Assembly (NCBI GenBank): GCA_003973385.1 | Contig: QNYK01000023.1 | Location: forward strand, 2,951 to 66,950 | DNA from: Bacillota bacterium | GTDB lineage: Bacteria; Planctomycetota; UBA8108; UBA1146 | Direction: 5' to 3' | Length of the DNA stretch: 64,000 nucleotides | Shown here: positions 3,427-61,428 of the stretch, piece after piece | How positions within the stretch are numbered: the stretch's first letter is position 1 | How the letters are laid out: each line of letters starts with the position of its first letter | Program-made: the position numbers and the translations under genes | Notes under the pieces: generated by a model | What the model saw: only the letters and a program-made list of their open reading frames with translations | What the model was told of the DNA's origin: nothing | The model's database searches: none

Positions 3427-4379
3427 CAGGAGCGCCCCTCAGAACCACCGAGAAAGGCGGGAAGTTGGCCCCCCATTCCAGCGCCAGAGGTCGTCTCCCC
3501 GCTATCGCGCGCCTCTTCCACCGTCTCCAGAAACATCTCCTCCAGGCTCCGGGATCCTGGACCGACCGAGATCACTTCAACCCCTGCTTCCTCGAAGTTC
3601 TGACGAACAGTGGCCAGTACCGCCTCGTCTGGATGCGATGTGGTCCACAGGGTTCGATCATCCCTGGCCAGGATCTGCTCGATCGATCCGGAGGCCTGAA
3701 CCTTTCCGCCGTAAAGGATGGAGACACGATCACAGACCTGTTCCACATCGGCCAACAGGTGGCTACTGATGAGCACTGTTTTCCCCAGTTTCCGAAGACT
3801 GACGATCCAGTCCTTCACCTGTCTGACCCCGATGGGATCGAGTCCATTGGTTGGCTCGTCGAGAATCAGGATCTCGGGATCGTGGATCAGAGCCTGCGCG
3901 ATTCCGATCCGTCGCTGCATACCCTTGGAGTAGTCGCCGATCTCCCGGTGAGCCGCGTCTTGCAGTCCGACCATCTCGAGCAAGTCAGAGATCCTCCCCT
4001 TTCGTTCTCTTGCAGGCACGCGGCCCAGGCTCGCAGAAAGGTCCAGCATCTCGGCACCGGTGAGGAAGGGGTAGAACACCGAATCCTCGGGAAGATAGCC
4101 GATGCGGTTCTTGCTCTGAGGAGTTCCTGGGGGAGTTCCAAGCACCGAGACCGAGCCAGCGCTCGGAAACAGCAATCCAAGCAAGATCTGGATGGTCGTG
4201 GACTTGCCCGATCCGTTCGGTCCCAGCAATCCATACACCTCGCCCGATTGGATGCTGAGGTCGATACCCCGCAGTGCCTCTACTCGGGGACGGAGCCAGA
4301 AGTCCCGAAAGGTCTTGCACAATCCACGAACCTGAATCACTTCTCGCTGCTCGGGATCGAACTTCGAATCGATAGCCAC
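3426..4379 (-). CDS. ABC transporter ATP-binding protein.
   Basis: Walker A GPNGSGKST, ABC signature YSKGMQRRIGIAQ and Walker B ILILDEP are present. The preferred start is the GTG at 4379, which is preceded by GGAGAGGAG. The six-frame ORF extends to 4562 without homology. Confidence 0.85.
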   Translation of the reverse strand: MAIDSKFDPEQREVIQVRGLCKTFRDFWLRPRVEALRGIDLSIQSGEVYGLLGPNGSGKSTTIQILLGLLFPSAGSVSVLGTPPGTPQSKNRIGYLPEDSVFYPFLTGAEMLDLSASLGRVPARERKGRISDLLEMVGLQDAAHREIGDYSKGMQRRIGIAQALIHDPEILILDEPTNGLDPIGVRQVKDWIVSLRKLGKTVLISSHLLADVEQVCDRVSILYGGKVQASGSIEQILARDDRTLWTTSHPDEAVLATVRQNFEEAGVEVISVGPGSRSLEEMFLETVEEARDSGETTSGAGMGGQLPAFLGGSEGRS

Positions 4380-7046: not shown

Positions 7047-7631
7047 CTAGTTCTTTTCGATCCACTGATCGATCAACCGGAGAGACTGAACCAACTTTTT
7101 CTTGATCGCGTTGATCTGCAGTCGGGTCATTCCCCTCCCGGCAGCATTCCCTTGCATGTTTTTCCAGGCCCGTTTCGCCTTGGTCGATCGATTGATCCCG
7201 AACTCTCTGCGCCAGTTGGTCACACTCGGCGTGCTGACGCCAAATCTCTGGGCAGTACTCACAACTCCTTCGAGAACCGAGAACTCTGCCACTTCCCGGC
7301 GGAACTGTGCTGAATACTTGCGACCTGTACTTCTCCGCTGCTGTTTCGGAATTGGTTGTTTCGGCAAAGATATCTTCTGTCCCTTCTCTGCCTGGATCTT
7401 GGTCTTCCGCGTCACACCGTAGAGTTTCCTCCAGTTCGTCACGCTCGGTGTAGAAACCTCGAACCTGTCAGCGGCGCGAGCGATCCCGTTCTTGATCGAA
7501 TATTTGACCACCTTGTGGCGGAAACTCTCGGAATATTTGGGTCTTGCGCCTCGGCGTGGCGATACATCGGAAGTTGGTTTTCGGGCTCGGGATTTACTGA
7601 TCCCCCTGCGGGGATTTGCTCCGGGTGACAT
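7047..7631 (-). CDS. Basic protein with two tandem IS3/IS911-OrfA-type helix-turn-helix domains. There is no transposase partner.
   Basis: Two internal repeats: KYSESFRHKVVKYSIKNGIARAADRFEVSTPSVTNWRKLYG and KYSAQFRREVAEFSVLEGVVSTAQRFGVSTPSVTNWRREFG. The protein is Lys/Arg rich. No rve/DDE ORF or terminal inverted repeats nearby. Confidence 0.6.
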   Translation of the reverse strand: MSPGANPRRGISKSRARKPTSDVSPRRGARPKYSESFRHKVVKYSIKNGIARAADRFEVSTPSVTNWRKLYGVTRKTKIQAEKGQKISLPKQPIPKQQRRSTGRKYSAQFRREVAEFSVLEGVVSTAQRFGVSTPSVTNWRREFGINRSTKAKRAWKNMQGNAAGRGMTRLQINAIKKKLVQSLRLIDQWIEKN

Positions 7632-38867: not shown

Positions 38868-38893
38868 TCCGATGGCCACTGGCGACTTGACTC

Positions 38894-38907
38894 CGAACAT
38901 CTGTTCG
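38894..38907. promoter_or_regulatory. Candidate LexA operator (Cheo-box type, CGAAC-N4-GTTCG) upstream of the small ORF and lexA.
   Basis: Perfect palindrome CGAACATCTGTTCG, read directly. It lies 27 nt after the queF stop, 68 nt before the small-ORF ATG and ~240 nt before lexA. A near-identical site lies upstream of dinB. Confidence 0.7.
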
Positions 38908-38974
38908 CCACCATACGGCTACCACTCCATGACGGTGAATTCGTTTCGAATGGTGACTAAAGAAGGAGGAAATT

Positions 38975-39103
38975 ATGGAAGGGTTAGCCGCAGCAGCATT
39001 TGTTTTCAGTCTAGTCGGAGTTGTGGCACTTGTTCGACTGGAAAAACTTACAAAAACCTTGAAAGAGAACGGGATTCTCAAAGAGGACTACAAAGAAGAA
39101 TAA
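38975..39103 (+). CDS. Unannotated 42-aa single-helix membrane peptide in the lexA leader. Candidate SOS-induced toxin or division inhibitor (TisB/SidA-like).
   Basis: ATG at 38975 is preceded by AGAAGGAGGA (5-nt spacer) and a TAA stop at 39101. Product is MEGLAAAAFVFSLVGVVALVRLEKLTKTLKENGILKEDYKEE. The local sequence and codons are AT-rich, unlike the flanking DNA. It is too short for the ORF track. Confidence 0.5.
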   Translation: MEGLAAAAFVFSLVGVVALVRLEKLTKTLKENGILKEDYKEE

Positions 39104-39148
39104 TGCACCGAGCAATAACACTCAGAAACCTCGGAGGTACTCCTGATC

Positions 39149-39823
39149 ATGAAATCCTCAGTCCACCAGAATCCGGGTACCGAGCGGTCCCTGACAGGGA
39201 CTCGTGCTCGGGTTCTCGATGTCATCCAGGCTGGAGTGCAGCAAGGTCGTCGCGCCACGGTTCGGGAAATCGCGGCTCAACTGGGTCTTTCTTCCCCCGC
39301 TTCGGTACACAGACACCTGCGCCGTCTCGAACGAGACGGTTTCATCCGCCGAGATCCGCTCGGTGGTTCCCGCAGTTGGATGCCAACTGCACCGGGTTCG
39401 ATTCCGATCGTTGGCCTCATCGCCGCAGGACAACCGATCGAAAGTTGTACCGATGACGGAAGTCAGCCACTCGAATGGCTCGACATTGCCCCACAAACCT
39501 TTGCCAGTTCCGGTGACATTGTGGCACTCAAGATCAAGGGTAGAAGTATGCAGGATGCGGGAATCCTGTCAGGAGACCTGGCCATCGTCCGGCGACAACC
39601 GATGGTCGAGAATGGTGAAGTCGCTGCCGTCACCGTCGATGGAAAGGGCACGCTCAAGAGCTGGCGAATCGAAACCCCTGGCACAGGCCAGCGATCTCGT
39701 CGACGGGTTCGGCTCAAGGCAGCCCATCCCGAGTTCGAGGATATCGAAGTTGATCCCGAGCATCATTCGATCGAGGTGTTCGGAAAACTGGTCGGGATCA
39801 TTCGTCACTTTGATCGACCCTGA
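39149..39823 (+). CDS. lexA: LexA repressor (S24 peptidase).
   Basis: N-terminal winged HTH (TVREIAAQLGLSSPASVHRHLRRLERDGFI), Ala-Gly cleavage region (LIAAGQPI), and catalytic Ser in KGRSMQDAGI with downstream Lys (KGTLKSW). Confidence 0.92.
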   Translation: MKSSVHQNPGTERSLTGTRARVLDVIQAGVQQGRRATVREIAAQLGLSSPASVHRHLRRLERDGFIRRDPLGGSRSWMPTAPGSIPIVGLIAAGQPIESCTDDGSQPLEWLDIAPQTFASSGDIVALKIKGRSMQDAGILSGDLAIVRRQPMVENGEVAAVTVDGKGTLKSWRIETPGTGQRSRRRVRLKAAHPEFEDIEVDPEHHSIEVFGKLVGIIRHFDRP

Positions 39824-39835
39824 CCGGGAGAACTG

Positions 39836-40099
39836 ATGGCCGAAATCCGCGAAGAAGAGATCCATGAGGCCCTCGACGAGGTGGTCGCCTGCTTTCGTGG
39901 CGGAAAGGTCGAAATCCGTTCTCTGCGCTGGCGTGGTCGTCACCATGTCGTCACGCAGATGCACGCCAGCTGGATCGATCGTTCCGTGCATCCACCGGTA
40001 CATGGCTTCACCGTCACGCTGGAAAGCGACGATCTGATGGAACTGGCGTACCAGGCGGGTGATCTGGTCTGGCGACTGGAACGTCTCTTTCTGGAGTAA
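39836..40099 (+). CDS. Hypothetical 87-aa protein translationally coupled to lexA.
   Basis: GGGAGA RBS and an ATG 13 nt after the lexA stop. No recognisable domain. The last codons lie inside the first unit of the downstream tandem repeat. Confidence 0.5.
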   Translation: MAEIREEEIHEALDEVVACFRGGKVEIRSLRWRGRHHVVTQMHASWIDRSVHPPVHGFTVTLESDDLMELAYQAGDLVWRLERLFLE

Positions 40100-40229
40100 T
40101 CACAGTGTTTCTGGAGTCATCACAGTGTTGTTTCTGGAGTCATCACAGTGTTTCTGGAGTCACCACAGTGTTTCTGGAGTCACCACAGTGTTTCTGGAGT
40201 CACCACAGTGTTTCTGGAGTCATCACAGT
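40088..40229. repeat. Seven tandem copies of the 20-bp unit GTTTCTGGAGTCA(T/C)CACAGT (first copy degenerate), noncoding.
   Basis: Read directly from the sequence. Unit boundaries are 40107, 40130, 40150, 40170, 40190 and 40210, with a 3-bp insertion at 40127-40129. It sits between the convergent 87-aa ORF and the HEAT-vWA gene. Confidence 0.9.
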
Positions 40230-40264
40230 GCCAGGCTGACCGACGCTGTGTTCGGGTTGTGCGG

Positions 40265-52936: not shown

Positions 52937-53785
52937 TCAACTCTCAGGGTAGAGTGACCCGGGGCCATCTACGAACAGATCTGGTAGTGGTGGAATTCCC
53001 GCCTCCGAATTATAAGAATCGGGATCGAGTCCCTGCTCACGGATCACTTCCTCATCGATGAAAAAGTTACCGGTGCAATCGGCAGGGTCGCGACTGACGA
53101 TGGCGCCAAAGGCATCGGCAACGATCTCGGGTCTTCGGGTGGCACGGCGATCCATCCCCGGGATCATCCGAAGTGCTTCGGTATCGATGACGGTTCGAGG
53201 CCATAACCCGTTGACAGCAATCTTGAGCGGTTTCAGTTCCTCGCTCATTCCGAGCACACACAGGCTCATTCCATACTTCGAAATTGTATAGGCGGTGTGT
53301 CGGGCGAACCAGACAGGTCGCATCGATGGCGGCGGGGAGAGGTTCACCACATGGGCACCTTCACCGTGGCTCATCGCGTCGATGGCGGCTCGGGTCAAGG
53401 TATAGGTACCCCTGACATTGACATCGAAGAGCAGATCGACACGCTTCATCGGCGTCTGGGTGACCGGTGTCAGGGAGATGGCACTGGCGTTATTGACGAG
53501 GATGTCGATGCGGCCAAACTCGGCCACTGCAGCAGCCACAGCAGCCTCCACCTGAGCGTCATCCCGGATGTCCATCTTGACGGCAAGCGCTTCAGAGCCC
53601 GCCTCGCGCACCAGATCAGCGGTCTCGTGAATCGTTCCTGGAAGTTGCGGATGAGGGGTATCGGTCTTGGCAGCGATCACCACCTTGGCCCCATCGCGTG
53701 CAGCCCTCAGCGCAATGGCACAACCGATGCCCCGGCTTCCACCGGAGATCATCACGACCTTTCCTGCGAGTGGGAATTCACTCAA
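52937..53785 (-). CDS. SDR-family oxidoreductase.
   Basis: GKVVMISGGSRGIG Rossmann motif, NNAS, and the catalytic YxxxK context (YTISKYGMSL). Confidence 0.85.
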   Translation of the reverse strand: MSEFPLAGKVVMISGGSRGIGCAIALRAARDGAKVVIAAKTDTPHPQLPGTIHETADLVREAGSEALAVKMDIRDDAQVEAAVAAAVAEFGRIDILVNNASAISLTPVTQTPMKRVDLLFDVNVRGTYTLTRAAIDAMSHGEGAHVVNLSPPPSMRPVWFARHTAYTISKYGMSLCVLGMSEELKPLKIAVNGLWPRTVIDTEALRMIPGMDRRATRRPEIVADAFGAIVSRDPADCTGNFFIDEEVIREQGLDPDSYNSEAGIPPLPDLFVDGPGSLYPES

Positions 53786-54600
53786 GACGCACCTCCTGTC
53801 ACGGATCTGTAGTCGGGGGGGCGCTTCTCGATGAAGGCCCGCACACCCTCGGGGAATTCTTCTCCCGCAGCACAGTACCCAAAGCAGATCGCCTCTGCTT
53901 CCAGCACATCTTCAAGATCCCGGGGAGCTGAACGAAGTAGTTTCCGGGTCGCCGCCAGCGCCTGCAACGGACCATCTGCAAGTTGCTGACAGATGCGCAG
54001 CGTTTCCGGCTCGAGTTGCTCTCGTTCTACGGCGCGCGCAAAGAGTCCCCAGGCCTGTGCGGTTTCGCCGTCAATCCTCTCGTTGAGGAGCGCCAGTACC
54101 GAGGCGCGTTGACGACCGATCAAGCGATTCAACTGGTAGGTCGATCCTCCATCCGGGGTCGTTCCGATGCCGGTGTAGGCGAGCGTGATCTTGGCGTCAC
54201 GGGCGCAGATCACCAGGTCGCATGCGAGAGCCAGGCTCAGACCGAATCCGGCACAGGCTCCGTGGACCTGGGCGACGACCGGAACCTGCAACTGATCGAT
54301 GGCCGTGATGGTGCGGTGAACGGTACGGATCTCATCGGTCACTGCCTGACGACGCTGCTCGGGATCGGGGCAGTCGGCAAACATCCCGGCGAACCAGCGC
54401 AGGTCCCCACCCGCCATGAAGCCACGACCCGCACCGACGACCCGGAGCACCCGAACATCGGCATGGGCTGCCACCTCCGTGAGTGCCTGGTCCAGTTCTG
54501 CCACCATCGTCCCATCGAGGGAGTTGAGCTGGCCCGGACGATTCAGCATCAATGTCATGAGGCCAGAATCATCGGGATCTGTCAGTTCCAGCGTTTCCAT
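53782..54600 (-). CDS. Enoyl-CoA hydratase/isomerase (crotonase) family protein.
   Basis: AGGDL oxyanion-hole motif (FMAGGDLRWF), VHGACAGFGLSLALACD. Start at the METLEL Met (54600). Confidence 0.85.
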   Translation of the reverse strand: METLELTDPDDSGLMTLMLNRPGQLNSLDGTMVAELDQALTEVAAHADVRVLRVVGAGRGFMAGGDLRWFAGMFADCPDPEQRRQAVTDEIRTVHRTITAIDQLQVPVVAQVHGACAGFGLSLALACDLVICARDAKITLAYTGIGTTPDGGSTYQLNRLIGRQRASVLALLNERIDGETAQAWGLFARAVEREQLEPETLRICQQLADGPLQALAATRKLLRSAPRDLEDVLEAEAICFGYCAAGEEFPEGVRAFIEKRPPDYRSVTGGAS

Positions 54601-54668
54601 CGGCCGCTCCTCTCGCGGGCGCGCATGGTGCTGTGCCGGGGCCCCCGGCACAAGCGAAGGGTAGATGG

Positions 54669-54682
54669 CGAACATATGTTCG
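54669..54682. promoter_or_regulatory. Candidate LexA operator (Cheo box) in the dinB promoter.
   Basis: Perfect palindrome CGAACATATGTTCG, 41 nt upstream of the dinB ATG and 27 nt before the AAAGGAG RBS. Confidence 0.75.
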
Positions 54683-54722
54683 CTATCCTATCACCCCTCG
54701 CCCCATCGAAAGGAGCCGATCG

Positions 54723-55982
54723 ATGCGCCCGCTGGTCCTGCATCTGGACATCGATGCCTTCTTCGCCTCGGTCGAGCAACTGCGCAACCCTCGGCTGGCG
54801 GGGCGTCCGGTGGCGGTCGGCAGCGGGGTCATCGCATCGTGTTCCTACGAGGCGAGGGAACATGGCCTGCAGGCGGGTATGCCGCTGGGCAAGGCGCTGC
54901 GCCAGTGCCCACCGCTGGTGATCGTGCGCGGACACGAATCGATCTACCGCTGCTACGCCGCCCGTCTGTTCGAGATCTGCCACAACTGGTCTCCGGTGGT
55001 GGAAGAACATCTCGACGAGGCGTATTGCGACCTGGCCGGAACCGAACGGATCTACCCCGATCCACGACAAGAGGTGGCACGACTGCGCGATGAGATCCAT
55101 TCGAGCACCGGATTGACCGTCACGGCGGGACTCGGCCGCAATCGGATGTTCGCCCGACTCATCGGCAAACTGCACAAACCCGATGGACTCGGATACATCG
55201 AACCGGAGCAGGAGGAATCGTTGCTGTTGCAACTACCGATCGAGAGCATCCCCGGAGTCGGCCCCCGCACCGCTACGGTGCTGTCGAACCTCGGCATCGA
55301 GAAGGTGGAACAACTGCGCGAACTGTCGCGCTCGGCGCTATCTGGACTGCTGGGACGAAACGGCGAGATCCTCTACGAACGCTGCCGAGGCGAGGATCAC
55401 CGTCTCATCGGCGGCCGTGAGATCCCCCGTAGCATCCAGCGGGGAACCTCCTTTGACGAGGACATCTCCTGTCCGCGCACTCTCGACGCGATGATCGAGT
55501 ACCTCGCTGAACGCATCGCCAGCAACCTGCGCCAGAGAGGTCTGGAAGCGGGAGGATTGGCACTTCAACTGGTTCACGGCGATCACCGACGCGATCGTCG
55601 ACGCGTCGCGCTGGCCCCACCCACCGCACTCGATCCTCCCATCATCAAGACCGCTCTCGAACTGCGTCGCGCGATGGAGGGACGCCGAACTGCGATCCGC
55701 TTCGTCGGCATCCACCTCGATCGCATCCGGCTCGCTGCCACGGTCGAGCAGGGAGATCTGTTCACGGCCACAACCGAAGACCCTGCTGACACCGATCTGC
55801 AGCAGCAGCAACGCTGGAAGCGACTTCTCGGCCAGGTTGACCGCATCCGGATGCGCCATGGCCACGGCGCACTGCTGCGCGGTAGCGCCCTGGCACTGCA
55901 AGATGGTCGGGATCGGGGTGGAACGGCTCTGGAGCGCGATCGACACGGACTCATCCTCCGCACCTCGTGCCTGACCCGTTGA
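54723..55982 (+). CDS. dinB: Y-family DNA polymerase IV-like (DinB).
   Basis: LHLDIDAFFASVEQ (catalytic Asp), SCSYEAREHG, DEAYCDL. Start assigned to the Met at 54723, just after the RBS and Cheo box. Confidence 0.85.
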   Translation: MRPLVLHLDIDAFFASVEQLRNPRLAGRPVAVGSGVIASCSYEAREHGLQAGMPLGKALRQCPPLVIVRGHESIYRCYAARLFEICHNWSPVVEEHLDEAYCDLAGTERIYPDPRQEVARLRDEIHSSTGLTVTAGLGRNRMFARLIGKLHKPDGLGYIEPEQEESLLLQLPIESIPGVGPRTATVLSNLGIEKVEQLRELSRSALSGLLGRNGEILYERCRGEDHRLIGGREIPRSIQRGTSFDEDISCPRTLDAMIEYLAERIASNLRQRGLEAGGLALQLVHGDHRRDRRRVALAPPTALDPPIIKTALELRRAMEGRRTAIRFVGIHLDRIRLAATVEQGDLFTATTEDPADTDLQQQQRWKRLLGQVDRIRMRHGHGALLRGSALALQDGRDRGGTALERDRHGLILRTSCLTR

Positions 55983-60264: not shown

Positions 60265-61428
60265 ATGGCCCTTCCCACCGGTTACACGACCCGAAACCTG
60301 CTGAGGCGCCGTTCACAGGTGCTCTTCACCGCGCTCGGCATCGGCTTCACGACTGCGGTCCTGTGCGGCGTGCTGTCGCTTCGCAACGGATTCGAACAGT
60401 TGTTCCGACCACTGGGTGCCGATGAAGTGGCGGTCTACCTGCGCATCGGAGCCACTTCCGAGGGAGATTCTGGAATCCCACGCGAGTCCGCTCGCATCAT
60501 CATCAAGGAACGACCAGAGATTCTCAGAGACGCTGCGGGCAGGCCGCTCGCCGCTGCGGAGTGTTTCCTGGCGATGTACATGGAGAAGATCAACGGCGGA
60601 CTGGTGAATGCGCCGCTTCGCGGTATCGAGGCAGCATCCTTGACGCTACATCCGACGCCTCCGCAGCTGATCGAAGGCCGCTGGCCAGACTGGGGCAGCG
60701 ACGAGGTGGTGGTCGGCCGCCCCCTGGTCAACCGGATGAAGAACTGTGCCCTCGGAGACACACTGACGCTCAACACCACTCCATTCGATGTGGTCGGGGT
60801 CTATGAGTTTGACAGTTCGCAAGGCAGCGAAATCTGGGGACCGGTCGATCGGATGCTGGAAGCGCTCGATAGACCTGTCTACAGCCGGGTGATTGCGCGA
60901 GTGCCGCTGGAGCTCGATTACGAGCAGGCGACCCTCGAACTGGAGCAGGATCCTCGTCTCAACATTTCCATCACCAGGCAGAGTGAATACCTGGCCACCC
61001 AGACGACAGGACTCAGCACCTCGTTACTGGTGCTGTCGGTATTCCTCACCCTCATCATGGGCTCCGCTGCAGTGATCGGCACCATGAATACGATGCTCGC
61101 CACCGTCGCCACCCGTACACACGAGATCGGTATCCTGCTCGCCATCGGCTACAGCCGGATCGAGGTGTTCCTCGCCTTCCTGCTCGAATCGGCCCAGGTC
61201 GGATTGATCGGTGGAGCGATGGGACTGCTGATGGTGATCCCGCTGCACGGTGTCGAGACGGGAGCGTCCAACTTCAACACCTTCACCGACATCAGTTTCT
61301 CATTCCGGTTATCCCCCACCATCGCCATCACTGCTGTTGGACTCTCATTCCTGCTCGGGATCATCGGCGGCGCGATCCCGGCGTGGATAGCGGCCAACAG
61401 GCAGGTCGTGGACGCCATCCGACGCTAA
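60265..61428 (+). CDS. FtsX-like ABC permease, second copy.
   Basis: Same topology as the preceding gene; 387 aa. Confidence 0.8.
   Translation: MALPTGYTTRNLLRRRSQVLFTALGIGFTTAVLCGVLSLRNGFEQLFRPLGADEVAVYLRIGATSEGDSGIPRESARIIIKERPEILRDAAGRPLAAAECFLAMYMEKINGGLVNAPLRGIEAASLTLHPTPPQLIEGRWPDWGSDEVVVGRPLVNRMKNCALGDTLTLNTTPFDVVGVYEFDSSQGSEIWGPVDRMLEALDRPVYSRVIARVPLELDYEQATLELEQDPRLNISITRQSEYLATQTTGLSTSLLVLSVFLTLIMGSAAVIGTMNTMLATVATRTHEIGILLAIGYSRIEVFLAFLLESAQVGLIGGAMGLLMVIPLHGVETGASNFNTFTDISFSFRLSPTIAITAVGLSFLLGIIGGAIPAWIAANRQVVDAIRR

What the first reader, a model, noticed from the sequence alone, without database searches (positions are those of the whole stretch)
54669..54682. Second perfect Cheo-box (CGAACATATGTTCG) in the dinB promoter. 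The SOS regulon uses a Gram-positive-type LexA motif.
This site is identical to the Bacillus consensus and sits 41 nt upstream of the Y-family polymerase start, in a 122-bp divergent intergenic region. With the 38894 site it gives two independent occurrences of CGAAC-N4-GTTCG in front of canonical SOS genes. That is strong internal evidence for the operator type of this organism's LexA. Motif choice is lineage-informative, since most Proteobacteria use other boxes.
Basis: seen in the sequence. Interest (0 to 1): 0.55.

Follow-up and report, generated by a model that had tools for sequence, protein, structure and literature searches.

The report
LexA operator in translesion polymerase promoter
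The 14-base palindrome is a real, evolutionarily conserved binding site for the DNA-damage repressor LexA in front of an error-prone DNA polymerase gene of an uncultured marine planctomycete. It is an ordinary kind of switch, and it shows that a three-gene "mutagenesis cassette" has been split in two here, with both halves kept under the same control.

Summary
CGAACATATGTTCG lies at 54669-54682, 40 nt before the ATG (54723) of a Y-family polymerase, in a 122-bp divergent intergenic region. A second exact site (38894-38907) lies upstream of lexA. That is two exact matches against 0.06 expected.

The organism is an uncultured marine Planctomycetota (LexA 93% identical to MAG UBA1146). Both boxes fill the spacer between -35-like and -10-like hexamers, and this layout recurs in 16 related promoters. 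In orthologous polymerase promoters, a 35-bp block around the box is 33/35 identical, while the flanks are 41-64% identical. The LexA has a Gram-positive-type recognition helix and intact self-cleavage residues. I conclude this is a LexA operator that blocks the polymerase promoter.

- The "dinB" is the polymerase of the known lexA-imuB-C-polY cassette.
- The two sites are not independent. lexA is followed by an 87-aa ImuB-C gene (39836-40099), so the boxes control two halves of one split cassette.

A genome-wide SOS regulon is therefore not shown; this LexA could serve the cassette only.

In passing: a horizontally acquired 42-aa membrane-peptide gene sits between the lexA box and lexA. Verdict: new member of a known kind, modest interest.

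The parts
54669..54682 (.). LexA operator (Cheo-type box CGAACATATGTTCG) of the polY promoter
   Evidence: Exact palindrome. 2 exact hits vs 0.06 expected. Conserved in 5 orthologous loci. Top PSSM score in the window, 24.5 bits.
54658..54692 (+). Conserved promoter-operator block (phylogenetic footprint) AGGGTAGATGG-box-CTATCCTATC
   Evidence: 33/35 identical to L083/L084 (PolY 81-82% aa identity), against 39/61 and 15/37 in the flanking intergenic DNA.
54662..54667 (+). Putative -35 hexamer TAGATG (weak, 3/6)
   Evidence: Its position corresponds to TTGACn in 15 related promoters aligned on the box. Inferred; the consensus scan did not call it.
54684..54689 (+). Putative -10 hexamer TATCCT, 1 nt after the box
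   Evidence: The same position holds yAyCCT or TATnnT in all aligned promoters. Inferred.
54723..55982 (+).
   Evidence: Pfam IMS, IMS_C and IMS_HHH_1. It is below the NCBIfam Pol IV equivalog cut-offs. Catalytic LDIDAFF / LDEA motifs, beta-clamp motif QGDLF at 343, and a conserved C-tail shared with cassette PolYs. Its nearest out-of-lineage homologues lie in lexA-imuB-C-polY operons.
53782..54600 (-). Divergent enoyl-CoA hydratase gene (neighbour, probably not part of the system)
   Evidence: Pfam ECH_1. Synteny ECH<- ->polY->CN-hydrolase is conserved in L081-L086.
38894..38907 (.). LexA operator (CGAACATCTGTTCG) of the lexA operon promoter
   Evidence: Exact match. Conserved upstream of lexA in L001, L002, L003, L161, L163-L167 and L179-L182.
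38887..38892 (+). -35 hexamer TTGACT of the lexA operon promoter
   Evidence: 5/6 match to consensus. TTGAC is conserved at this position in relatives.
38909..38914 (+). Putative -10 hexamer CACCAT (CATCCT in relatives)
   Evidence: Alignment of promoters anchored on the box. Inferred.
38975..39103 (+). 42-aa membrane-peptide ORF inserted in the lexA leader (horizontally acquired)
   Evidence: Strong SD AAGGAGG; 42% GC vs 58% for the window. More than 300 homologues at 74-98% identity. Absent from the leader in L161, L163-L167, L002 and L003; present in L001 and L179-L183.
39149..39823 (+). lexA (224 aa)
   Evidence: Pfam LexA_DNA_bind + Peptidase_S24. It passes the TIGR00498 equivalog cut-off, 122.8 vs 110.95. 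The Ala-Gly cleavage site, Ser133 and Lys170 are conserved.
39836..40099 (+). Standalone ImuB-C-like gene (87 aa, DUF6504), 13 nt after lexA
   Evidence: Conserved after lexA in all relatives. 24/38 homologues hit PF20114. Invariant C-terminal Trp. All-beta model, pLDDT 94. Homologues sit in lexA-X-polY(-dnaE2) operons.

Best explanation
The palindrome at 54669-54682 is an operator for the LexA repressor encoded at 39149-39823. It occupies the 16-nt spacer between a -35-like hexamer (TAGATG) and a -10-like hexamer (TATCCT) of the promoter of a Y-family translesion polymerase gene. A LexA dimer bound there would exclude RNA polymerase.

After DNA damage, RecA-stimulated self-cleavage of LexA (Ala-Gly site, Ser/Lys dyad present) would release the promoter. 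An identical arrangement (TTGACT, 1 nt, box, 1 nt, CACCAT) controls the operon [42-aa ORF]-lexA-imuB-C.

[quoted passage not shown] Shown here: the sequence, its non-random occurrence, its conservation, the gene identities, and the cassette relationship.
Inferred: the promoter hexamers, LexA binding, and damage inducibility.
For: 1. Occurrence: 2 exact sites vs 0.06 expected, 0/100 shuffles. They are the two top PSSM scores in 64 kb. They lie before the only two SOS-type transcription units found in the window.
2. Footprint: all 5 orthologous polY loci (81-100% aa identity) keep the box. The 35-bp block is 33/35 identical, while the flanks are 64% and 41% identical and carry indels.
3. Autoregulation site: the box is conserved upstream of lexA in relatives down to 48% LexA identity, always as -35, 1-3 nt, box, 1 nt, -10.
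4. The same module is found upstream of lexA in 15/41 metagenomic lexA-imuB-C-polY cassettes, and (as CAAAC-N4-GTTTG) before imuB-C-polY in planctomycete UBA4800.
5. LexA helix 3 reads SPASVHRHL. This resembles Firmicutes/Actinobacteria SPSTVHSHL rather than E. coli SPNAAEEHL. The cleavage and catalytic residues are intact and the protein passes the TIGR00498 equivalog cut-off.
6. Positive control: 30 of the other lexA loci fetched (mostly Actinobacteria, known users of this motif) carry exact boxes, nearly all within about 100-500 nt upstream of lexA.
7. Cassette link: an ImuB-C-like gene follows lexA, its homologues lie in lexA-X-polY operons, and the closest out-of-lineage homologues of the window PolY lie directly behind imuB-C and lexA. 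The PolYs also share a conserved C-terminal tail. This cassette, including in Planctomycetes, is described in PMC6511836 and PMC3765255.
Against: - There is no binding or expression data.
- The generic sigma-70 scan found no promoter at 54500-54800, so the -35/-10 assignment rests on comparative alignment only.
- No recA, uvrA or other SOS genes lie in the window, so regulon-level use of the motif is untested.
- A promoter-like match inside the inserted 42-aa ORF (39075-39104) could give lexA some LexA-independent transcription.
- The box is also 68 nt from the divergent ECH start, so an effect on that gene cannot be excluded.
Confidence: 0.82

Rival explanations
1. The boxes are LexA operators, but this LexA is dedicated to the mutagenesis cassette (lexA, imuB-C, polY). 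It is not the master regulator of a broad SOS regulon, so the motif says little about recA, uvrA and the like in this organism.
For: Every target seen belongs to one ancestral cassette. The promoter-operator module travels with the cassette in many unrelated contigs. [quoted passage not shown] P. putida LexA2 is a further example (my own knowledge).
Against: lexA sits in a stable housekeeping neighbourhood (truD-queF-lexA) across the lineage. It passes the LexA equivalog model. No second lexA was seen, though only about 64 kb plus flanks were examined.
Confidence: 0.35
2. The palindrome is bound by a different dimeric transcription factor, for example a regulator of the divergent enoyl-CoA hydratase / fatty-acid genes, and only coincidentally resembles a Cheo box.
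For: The site lies in a divergent intergenic region next to lipid-metabolism genes (ECH, SDR, thioesterase). A separate perfect 10-bp palindrome lies nearby at 54632-54652.
Against: The same 14-mer lies upstream of lexA itself and is conserved there across the lineage. It accompanies lexA-imuB-C-polY cassettes that have no ECH neighbour. It sits in the polY-side promoter with the same geometry as at lexA.
Confidence: 0.04
3. Chance occurrence of a short palindrome in GC-rich DNA.
For: With one mismatch allowed, the motif count in the window is not significant (6 vs 2.7 expected; 7/100 shuffles).
Against: Exact matches: 2 vs 0.06 expected. Both lie in promoters of SOS-type genes. There is a strong phylogenetic footprint.
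Confidence: 0.01

Closest known systems
Bacillus subtilis Cheo box / DinR(LexA) operators (CGAAC-N4-GTTCG; Au et al. 2005 as tabulated in PMC9578287) and the actinobacterial SOS box
   Same: The half-sites and spacing are identical; the window site equals the idealised consensus CGAACATATGTTCG. It lies before lexA itself and a Y-family polymerase. The LexA recognition helix is of the same type.
   Different: The host is a Gram-negative-type PVC bacterium (Planctomycetota). Only one box per promoter was seen. Only cassette genes are known as targets. No experimental binding data exist.
Geobacter sulfurreducens lexA-imuB-C(GSU0042-like)-dinB operon and the 'GeoPolY-like' group (PMC6511836; PMC3765255)
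   Same: The three components are the same: LexA, a standalone ~85-aa all-beta ImuB-C with a conserved C-terminal Trp, and an active PolY with a beta-clamp motif and conserved C-tail. [quoted passage not shown]
   Different: Here polY has left the operon (14.6 kb away) and carries its own promoter and LexA box. The operator is Cheo-type rather than the Geobacter motif (my own knowledge). An extra 42-aa ORF precedes lexA.
Verrucomicrobia LexA motif TGTTC-N4-GAACA (Erill et al. 2016; cited in PMC8565304, paper not held; motif from my own knowledge)
   Same: Same PVC superphylum. A 14-bp palindrome built from GAAC/GTTC elements, controlling lexA and a mutagenesis cassette.
   Different: The half-sites are in the opposite orientation. 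The planctomycete lineage here keeps the canonical CGAAC-N4-GTTCG arrangement.
imuA-imuB-dnaE2 LexA-regulated mutagenesis cassette
   Same: A LexA-controlled translesion module that contains an ImuB-C domain. Some homologous cassettes found here also carry dnaE2 (L174, L177).
   Different: The window has no imuA and no dnaE2. The Y-family member has intact catalytic motifs, and ImuB-C is a separate protein.

Membership tests
LexA operator of the CGAAC-N4-GTTCG (Cheo / Gram-positive) class | 14-bp inverted repeat CGAAC-N4-GTTCG | tested here: met
   Exact at 54669-54682 and 38894-38907.
LexA operator of the CGAAC-N4-GTTCG (Cheo / Gram-positive) class | Located within or overlapping the promoter of a DNA-damage gene | tested here: met
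   The box fills the -35/-10 spacer in 16 aligned lexA and polY promoters plus 18 cassette sites. The hexamers are inferred, not mapped.
LexA operator of the CGAAC-N4-GTTCG (Cheo / Gram-positive) class | Present upstream of lexA (autoregulation) and conserved in orthologous promoters | tested here: met
LexA operator of the CGAAC-N4-GTTCG (Cheo / Gram-positive) class | Cognate LexA with a matching DNA-binding domain and a self-cleavage apparatus | tested here: met
   Passes TIGR00498. Helix 3 is of the Gram-positive type. The AG site, Ser and Lys are conserved.
LexA operator of the CGAAC-N4-GTTCG (Cheo / Gram-positive) class | Specific LexA binding and DNA-damage induction of the downstream gene | not testable with these tools
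   Requires EMSA/ChIP and expression data. The organism is uncultured.
LexA operator of the CGAAC-N4-GTTCG (Cheo / Gram-positive) class | Enrichment of the motif at other SOS genes genome-wide (recA, uvrA, etc.) | not tested
   No such genes lie in the window.
lexA-imuB-C-polY SOS mutagenesis cassette | Standalone ImuB-C: ~85 aa, beta-rich, conserved C-terminal Trp, encoded next to lexA | tested here: met
   87 aa, starting 13 nt after lexA. W79 is invariant. The model has seven beta-strands (pLDDT 94). 24/38 homologues hit DUF6504.
lexA-imuB-C-polY SOS mutagenesis cassette | Sequence homology of the small protein to the C-terminal domain of ImuB | not tested
The window protein alone gives only E=0.12 to DUF6504. 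The link rests on context and on PMC3765255. There is no PDB relative.
lexA-imuB-C-polY SOS mutagenesis cassette | Y-family polymerase encoded in the same operon, directly downstream of imuB-C | tested here: not met
   In the window and its close relatives, imuB-C is followed by a convergent HEAT/VWA gene, and polY lies 14.6 kb away with its own box. This makes it a split variant.
lexA-imuB-C-polY SOS mutagenesis cassette | Polymerase orthologous to cassette PolYs, with a beta-clamp motif and conserved C-terminal tail | tested here: met
   Most of the 38-51% identical homologues sit behind imuB-C. The QxxLF motif, the RLxxxDxIRxRxG motif and the HGFVLRTxCLT tail are shared. Pfam DUF4113 itself was not detected.
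DinB / DNA polymerase IV (housekeeping equivalog) | Score above the NCBIfam Pol IV equivalog cut-offs | tested here: not met
   The best score was 243.6 bits against a cut-off of 367; all Pol IV models were below cut-off. The Pfam IMS domains are met.

The most novel reading that the evidence does not exclude
The lexA leader of this planctomycete lineage has captured a ~200-bp fragment from another marine bacterium. The fragment carries a 42-aa single-pass membrane peptide gene that normally sits 30 nt downstream of glmS. This places a horizontally mobile small membrane protein under a LexA-controlled promoter. The peptide would then be a newly recruited DNA-damage-induced effector, comparable in logic to TisB, SidA or YneA, in a phylum with unconventional cell division. 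The LexA itself may be a dedicated regulator of a split ImuB-C/PolY mutasome rather than a global SOS regulator.
Probability: 0.25. Interest if true: 0.6.

Novelty: new member of a known kind. Interest (0 to 1): 0.32.

Why it matters
- It assigns an operator type to LexA in an uncultured marine Planctomycetota lineage. In the literature I could search, nothing beyond "not the E. coli motif" is stated for this phylum.
- It shows that the lexA-imuB-C-polY mutagenesis cassette can be split while both halves keep the same promoter-operator design. This is useful for regulon reconstruction in metagenome-assembled genomes.
- It provides a position-specific template (-35, 1-3 nt, CGAAC-N4-GTTCG, 1 nt, -10) for predicting SOS genes in these genomes.
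- The mechanism itself is textbook, so the gain is incremental.

Tried and rejected
- The generic sigma-70/terminator scan found nothing at the polY promoter. It found only a weak promoter-like match inside the 42-aa ORF. I relied on comparative alignment instead.
- One-mismatch matches in the window (13453, 14000, 43730, 60393) are all intragenic and not enriched, so I dismissed them as chance.
- Distant polY homologues (<=50% identity) mostly lack a box directly upstream. This first looked like evidence against conservation. It is explained because those genes sit inside lexA-imuB-C-polY operons whose promoter lies upstream of lexA.
- Pfam and NCBIfam gave no significant hit for the 87-aa protein alone. 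The family was identified only through its homologues.
- PDB sequence and fold searches for ImuB-C found no relative.
- A search for an ImuB fusion among the held loci found none.
- Rfam found no RNA family in the lexA region or anywhere in the window.
- Literature searches for a described planctomycete LexA box found none in the held library. Erill 2016 (Verrucomicrobia) is not held and Erill 2007 was not looked up, so prior description cannot be excluded.
- I rejected an N-terminally extended ECH start at 54675 (an ATG inside the box), because indels in L083/L084 break that frame.

Full report
**Observation**

The sequence at 54669-54682 is CGAACATATGTTCG. The downstream ORF starts at ATG 54723 with a Shine-Dalgarno AAAGGAG at 54709-54715. 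It encodes a 419-aa Y-family polymerase with Pfam IMS, IMS_C and IMS_HHH_1 domains.

A second exact site, CGAACATCTGTTCG, lies at 38894-38907. Exact matches to CGAAC-N4-GTTCG number 2 in 64 kb against 0.06 expected, and 0 of 100 shuffles reached 2. The one-mismatch count is not significant, and the extra sites are intragenic.

**Organism**

The LexA encoded at 39149-39823 is 93% identical to that of the MAG 'Planctomycetes bacterium UBA1146'. It is 48-76% identical to LexAs on marine (TARA and other) contigs labelled Planctomycetota.

Gene order (GSDH, lytB, urocanase, amidohydrolase, greA-like, truD, queF, lexA) is conserved across these contigs. The window is therefore from an uncultured marine Planctomycetota lineage, not a Gram-positive or a proteobacterium.

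**Is the box functional? Comparative evidence**

*polY promoter.* I fetched polymerase orthologues from metagenomes.
- All five loci with 81-100% protein identity and upstream sequence keep the box, as CGAACATATGTTCG or CGAACAGATGTTCG.
- In the alignment of the intergenic regions, a 35-bp block (54658-54692) is 33/35 identical between the window and L083/L084.
- The flanking intergenic DNA is 39/61 and 15/37 identical and full of indels. This is a clear phylogenetic footprint.

*lexA promoter.* A box lies upstream of lexA in relatives down to 48% LexA identity. It is exact or has one mismatch in L001, L002, L003, L161, L163-L167 and L179-L182.

*Promoter geometry.* Anchoring 16 such promoters on the box shows a constant design: a -35-like hexamer (TTGACn; TAGATG at polY), 1-3 nt, the 14-bp box, 1 nt, then a -10-like hexamer (CATCCT, TATCCT, TAACCT; CACCAT at the window's lexA). 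The box thus fills the promoter spacer, the classic position for repression by steric exclusion. The hexamers are inferred; the generic scan did not call them.

**The repressor**

- The LexA passes the NCBIfam LexA equivalog cut-off.
- It has the LexA_DNA_bind and Peptidase_S24 domains.
- It keeps the Ala-Gly cleavage site and the Ser/Lys dyad.
- Its recognition helix (SPASVHRHL) resembles that of Firmicutes and Actinobacteria LexAs (SPSTVHSHL), not E. coli (SPNAAEEHL).
- As a positive control, 30 of the other lexA loci fetched in the same scan (mostly Actinobacteria) have exact boxes, nearly all upstream of lexA.

**What the two boxes control**

Thirteen nucleotides after lexA lies an 87-aa ORF (39836-40099). 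It is conserved after lexA in every relative.
- Alone it has no significant family hit.
- 24 of 38 homologues match Pfam DUF6504.
- The family has an invariant C-terminal tryptophan.
- A confident AlphaFold model (pLDDT 94) is all-beta with seven strands and has no PDB relative.
- Three homologues looked up (five loci) all lie in operons lexA - 84-aa gene - Y-family polymerase, sometimes followed by dnaE2.

This matches the standalone ImuB-C domain of Aravind et al. 2013. They describe small GSU0042-like proteins that are beta-rich, have a conserved C-terminal Trp, and are most often encoded with DinB and LexA (PMC3765255). [quoted passage not shown]

Most of the nearest out-of-lineage homologues of the window polymerase (38-51% identity, about 50 loci) lie directly downstream of an imuB-C gene, and where the contig reaches far enough, usually of lexA too.

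The window polymerase shares several features with these cassette polymerases:
- the catalytic motifs;
- a beta-clamp motif (QGDLF);
- a RLxxxDxIRxRxG motif;
- a conserved extreme C-terminal tail (HGLILRTSCLTR).

It does not reach the Pol IV equivalog cut-offs.

The 'dinB' is therefore the cassette polymerase. In this lineage the cassette is split. The first half, [box]-(42-aa ORF)-lexA-imuB-C, lies at 38894-40099. The second, [box]-polY, lies at 54669-55982 and is embedded between an enoyl-CoA hydratase and a CN-hydrolase gene, a synteny conserved in L081-L086.

This also explains why distant homologues lack a box directly upstream: their promoter lies before lexA. There, 15 of 41 loci carry an exact or one-mismatch Cheo-type box in the same -35/box/-10 arrangement.

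Planctomycete UBA4800 (L004) has TTGACA-A-CAAACGTTCGTTTG-T-TATACT before imuB-C-polY, a variant half-site. A Phycisphaerales lexA (L058) has no box.

**Mechanism (best explanation, confidence about 0.8)**

LexA dimers bind the two operators and block RNA polymerase at both promoters. DNA damage leads to RecA-stimulated LexA self-cleavage. That de-represses lexA, ImuB-C and PolY together, supplying a translesion polymerase with its accessory subunit.

Binding and induction are inferred. The sequence, statistics, conservation and gene identities are shown.

**Limits and rivals**

- The window holds no recA, uvrA, imuA or dnaE2.
- All targets seen belong to one ancestral cassette, whose promoter-operator module appears to travel with it.
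A cassette-dedicated LexA remains possible; I give this about 0.35.
- Binding by another factor and a chance occurrence are both very unlikely, given the lexA-linked conservation.

**Literature**

The held library contains only the statement that planctomycete LexA does not use the E. coli motif (PMC3108266). It holds no description of a planctomycete LexA box. Erill 2016 is not held and Erill 2007 was not looked up, so I cannot exclude prior description.

**Side finding**

Between the lexA box and lexA lies a 42-aa ORF (38975-39103). It has a strong SD, a hydrophobic N-terminal helix followed by a charged tail, and 42% GC against 58% for the window.
- It is absent from the leader in L161, L163-L167, L002 and L003. 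It is present in L001 and L179-L183.
- It has more than 300 homologues at 74-98% identity, nearly all exactly 42 aa. They come from marine metagenomes, including contigs labelled Gammaproteobacteria and Gemmatimonadota.
- In six gammaproteobacterial-type loci it always sits 30 nt downstream of glmS.
- The planctomycete insert retains a remnant of the glmS 3' end (ACCGTGGAATGG in L179 against ACCGTGGAGTAG), so a ~200-bp fragment was acquired horizontally.
- Codon changes between phyla are mostly synonymous (14-22 synonymous vs 7-10 non-synonymous codons), which argues for a translated peptide.
- Its function is unknown. Its position makes it a candidate LexA-controlled gene.

**Verdict**

This is a genuine, well-conserved LexA operator of the known CGAAC-N4-GTTCG class, in a planctomycete, controlling one half of a split lexA-imuB-C-polY cassette. 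It is a new member of a known kind and of modest interest.

Noticed in passing
window 38975-39103: A 42-aa ORF (MEGLAAAAFVFSLVGVVALVRLEKLTKTLKENGILKEDYKEE) lies between the lexA operator/promoter and lexA. It is GC-poor and has a strong SD. More than 300 near-identical-length homologues (74-98% identity) occur in marine metagenomes from other phyla. In gammaproteobacterial contigs it always lies 30 nt downstream of glmS. The planctomycete copy carries a remnant of the glmS 3' end, which indicates horizontal acquisition of a ~200-bp fragment.
   Followed up: partly
L170-L173, about 3960-4260 (downstream of glmS): In the gammaproteobacterial loci the 42-aa gene is flanked by inverted repeats (TTTACAACAGT / ACTGTTGTAAA). 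In L173 it is followed by a second copy of the glmS 3' end plus leader (..GTTACAGTTGAGTAGTTCACAACAGTGAATTAAACAGGAGG) that precedes the next gene. This looks like cassette-style insertion at the glmS 3' end.
   Followed up: no
window 54632-54652: A perfect 10-bp palindrome, TGTGCCGGGG-C-CCCCGGCACA, lies between the ECH start and the LexA box. In L083/L084 the same place holds a different inverted repeat (GTGCTGT...ACAGCAC). It may be an operator or hairpin belonging to the divergent ECH gene.
   Followed up: no
window 40088-40230: A 20-bp tandem repeat of 7 copies (TTTCTGGAGTCATCACAGTG) starts in the last 12 nt of imuB-C and runs into the gap before the convergent HEAT/VWA gene. L165 has an unrelated 15-bp tandem array between its LexA box and lexA.
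   Followed up: no
window 60393-60406: The third-best PSSM site, CGAACAGTTGTTCC (18 bits, one mismatch), lies 128 nt inside a MacB/FtsX-like permease gene (60265-61428). It is probably chance.
   Followed up: partly
L087, L174, L177/L178 upstream of lexA: Some lexA-imuB-C-polY(-dnaE2) cassettes carry two Cheo-type boxes 33-35 bp apart. The first sits in the promoter spacer and the second just downstream. Their LexAs are unusually long (322-343 aa).
   Followed up: no
L106 (about 234-1090) and L131 (1-1142): Stop-to-stop reading frames of 287 and 380 aa end in an ImuB-C domain. These may be LexA-ImuB-C fusions or other N-terminal fusions. I did not examine them further.
   Followed up: no
window 7047-7631: An ORF with transposase-type HTH domains (HTH_Tnp_1, HTH_23) lies next to a NYN-domain gene, which hints at a mobile-element remnant.
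   Followed up: no
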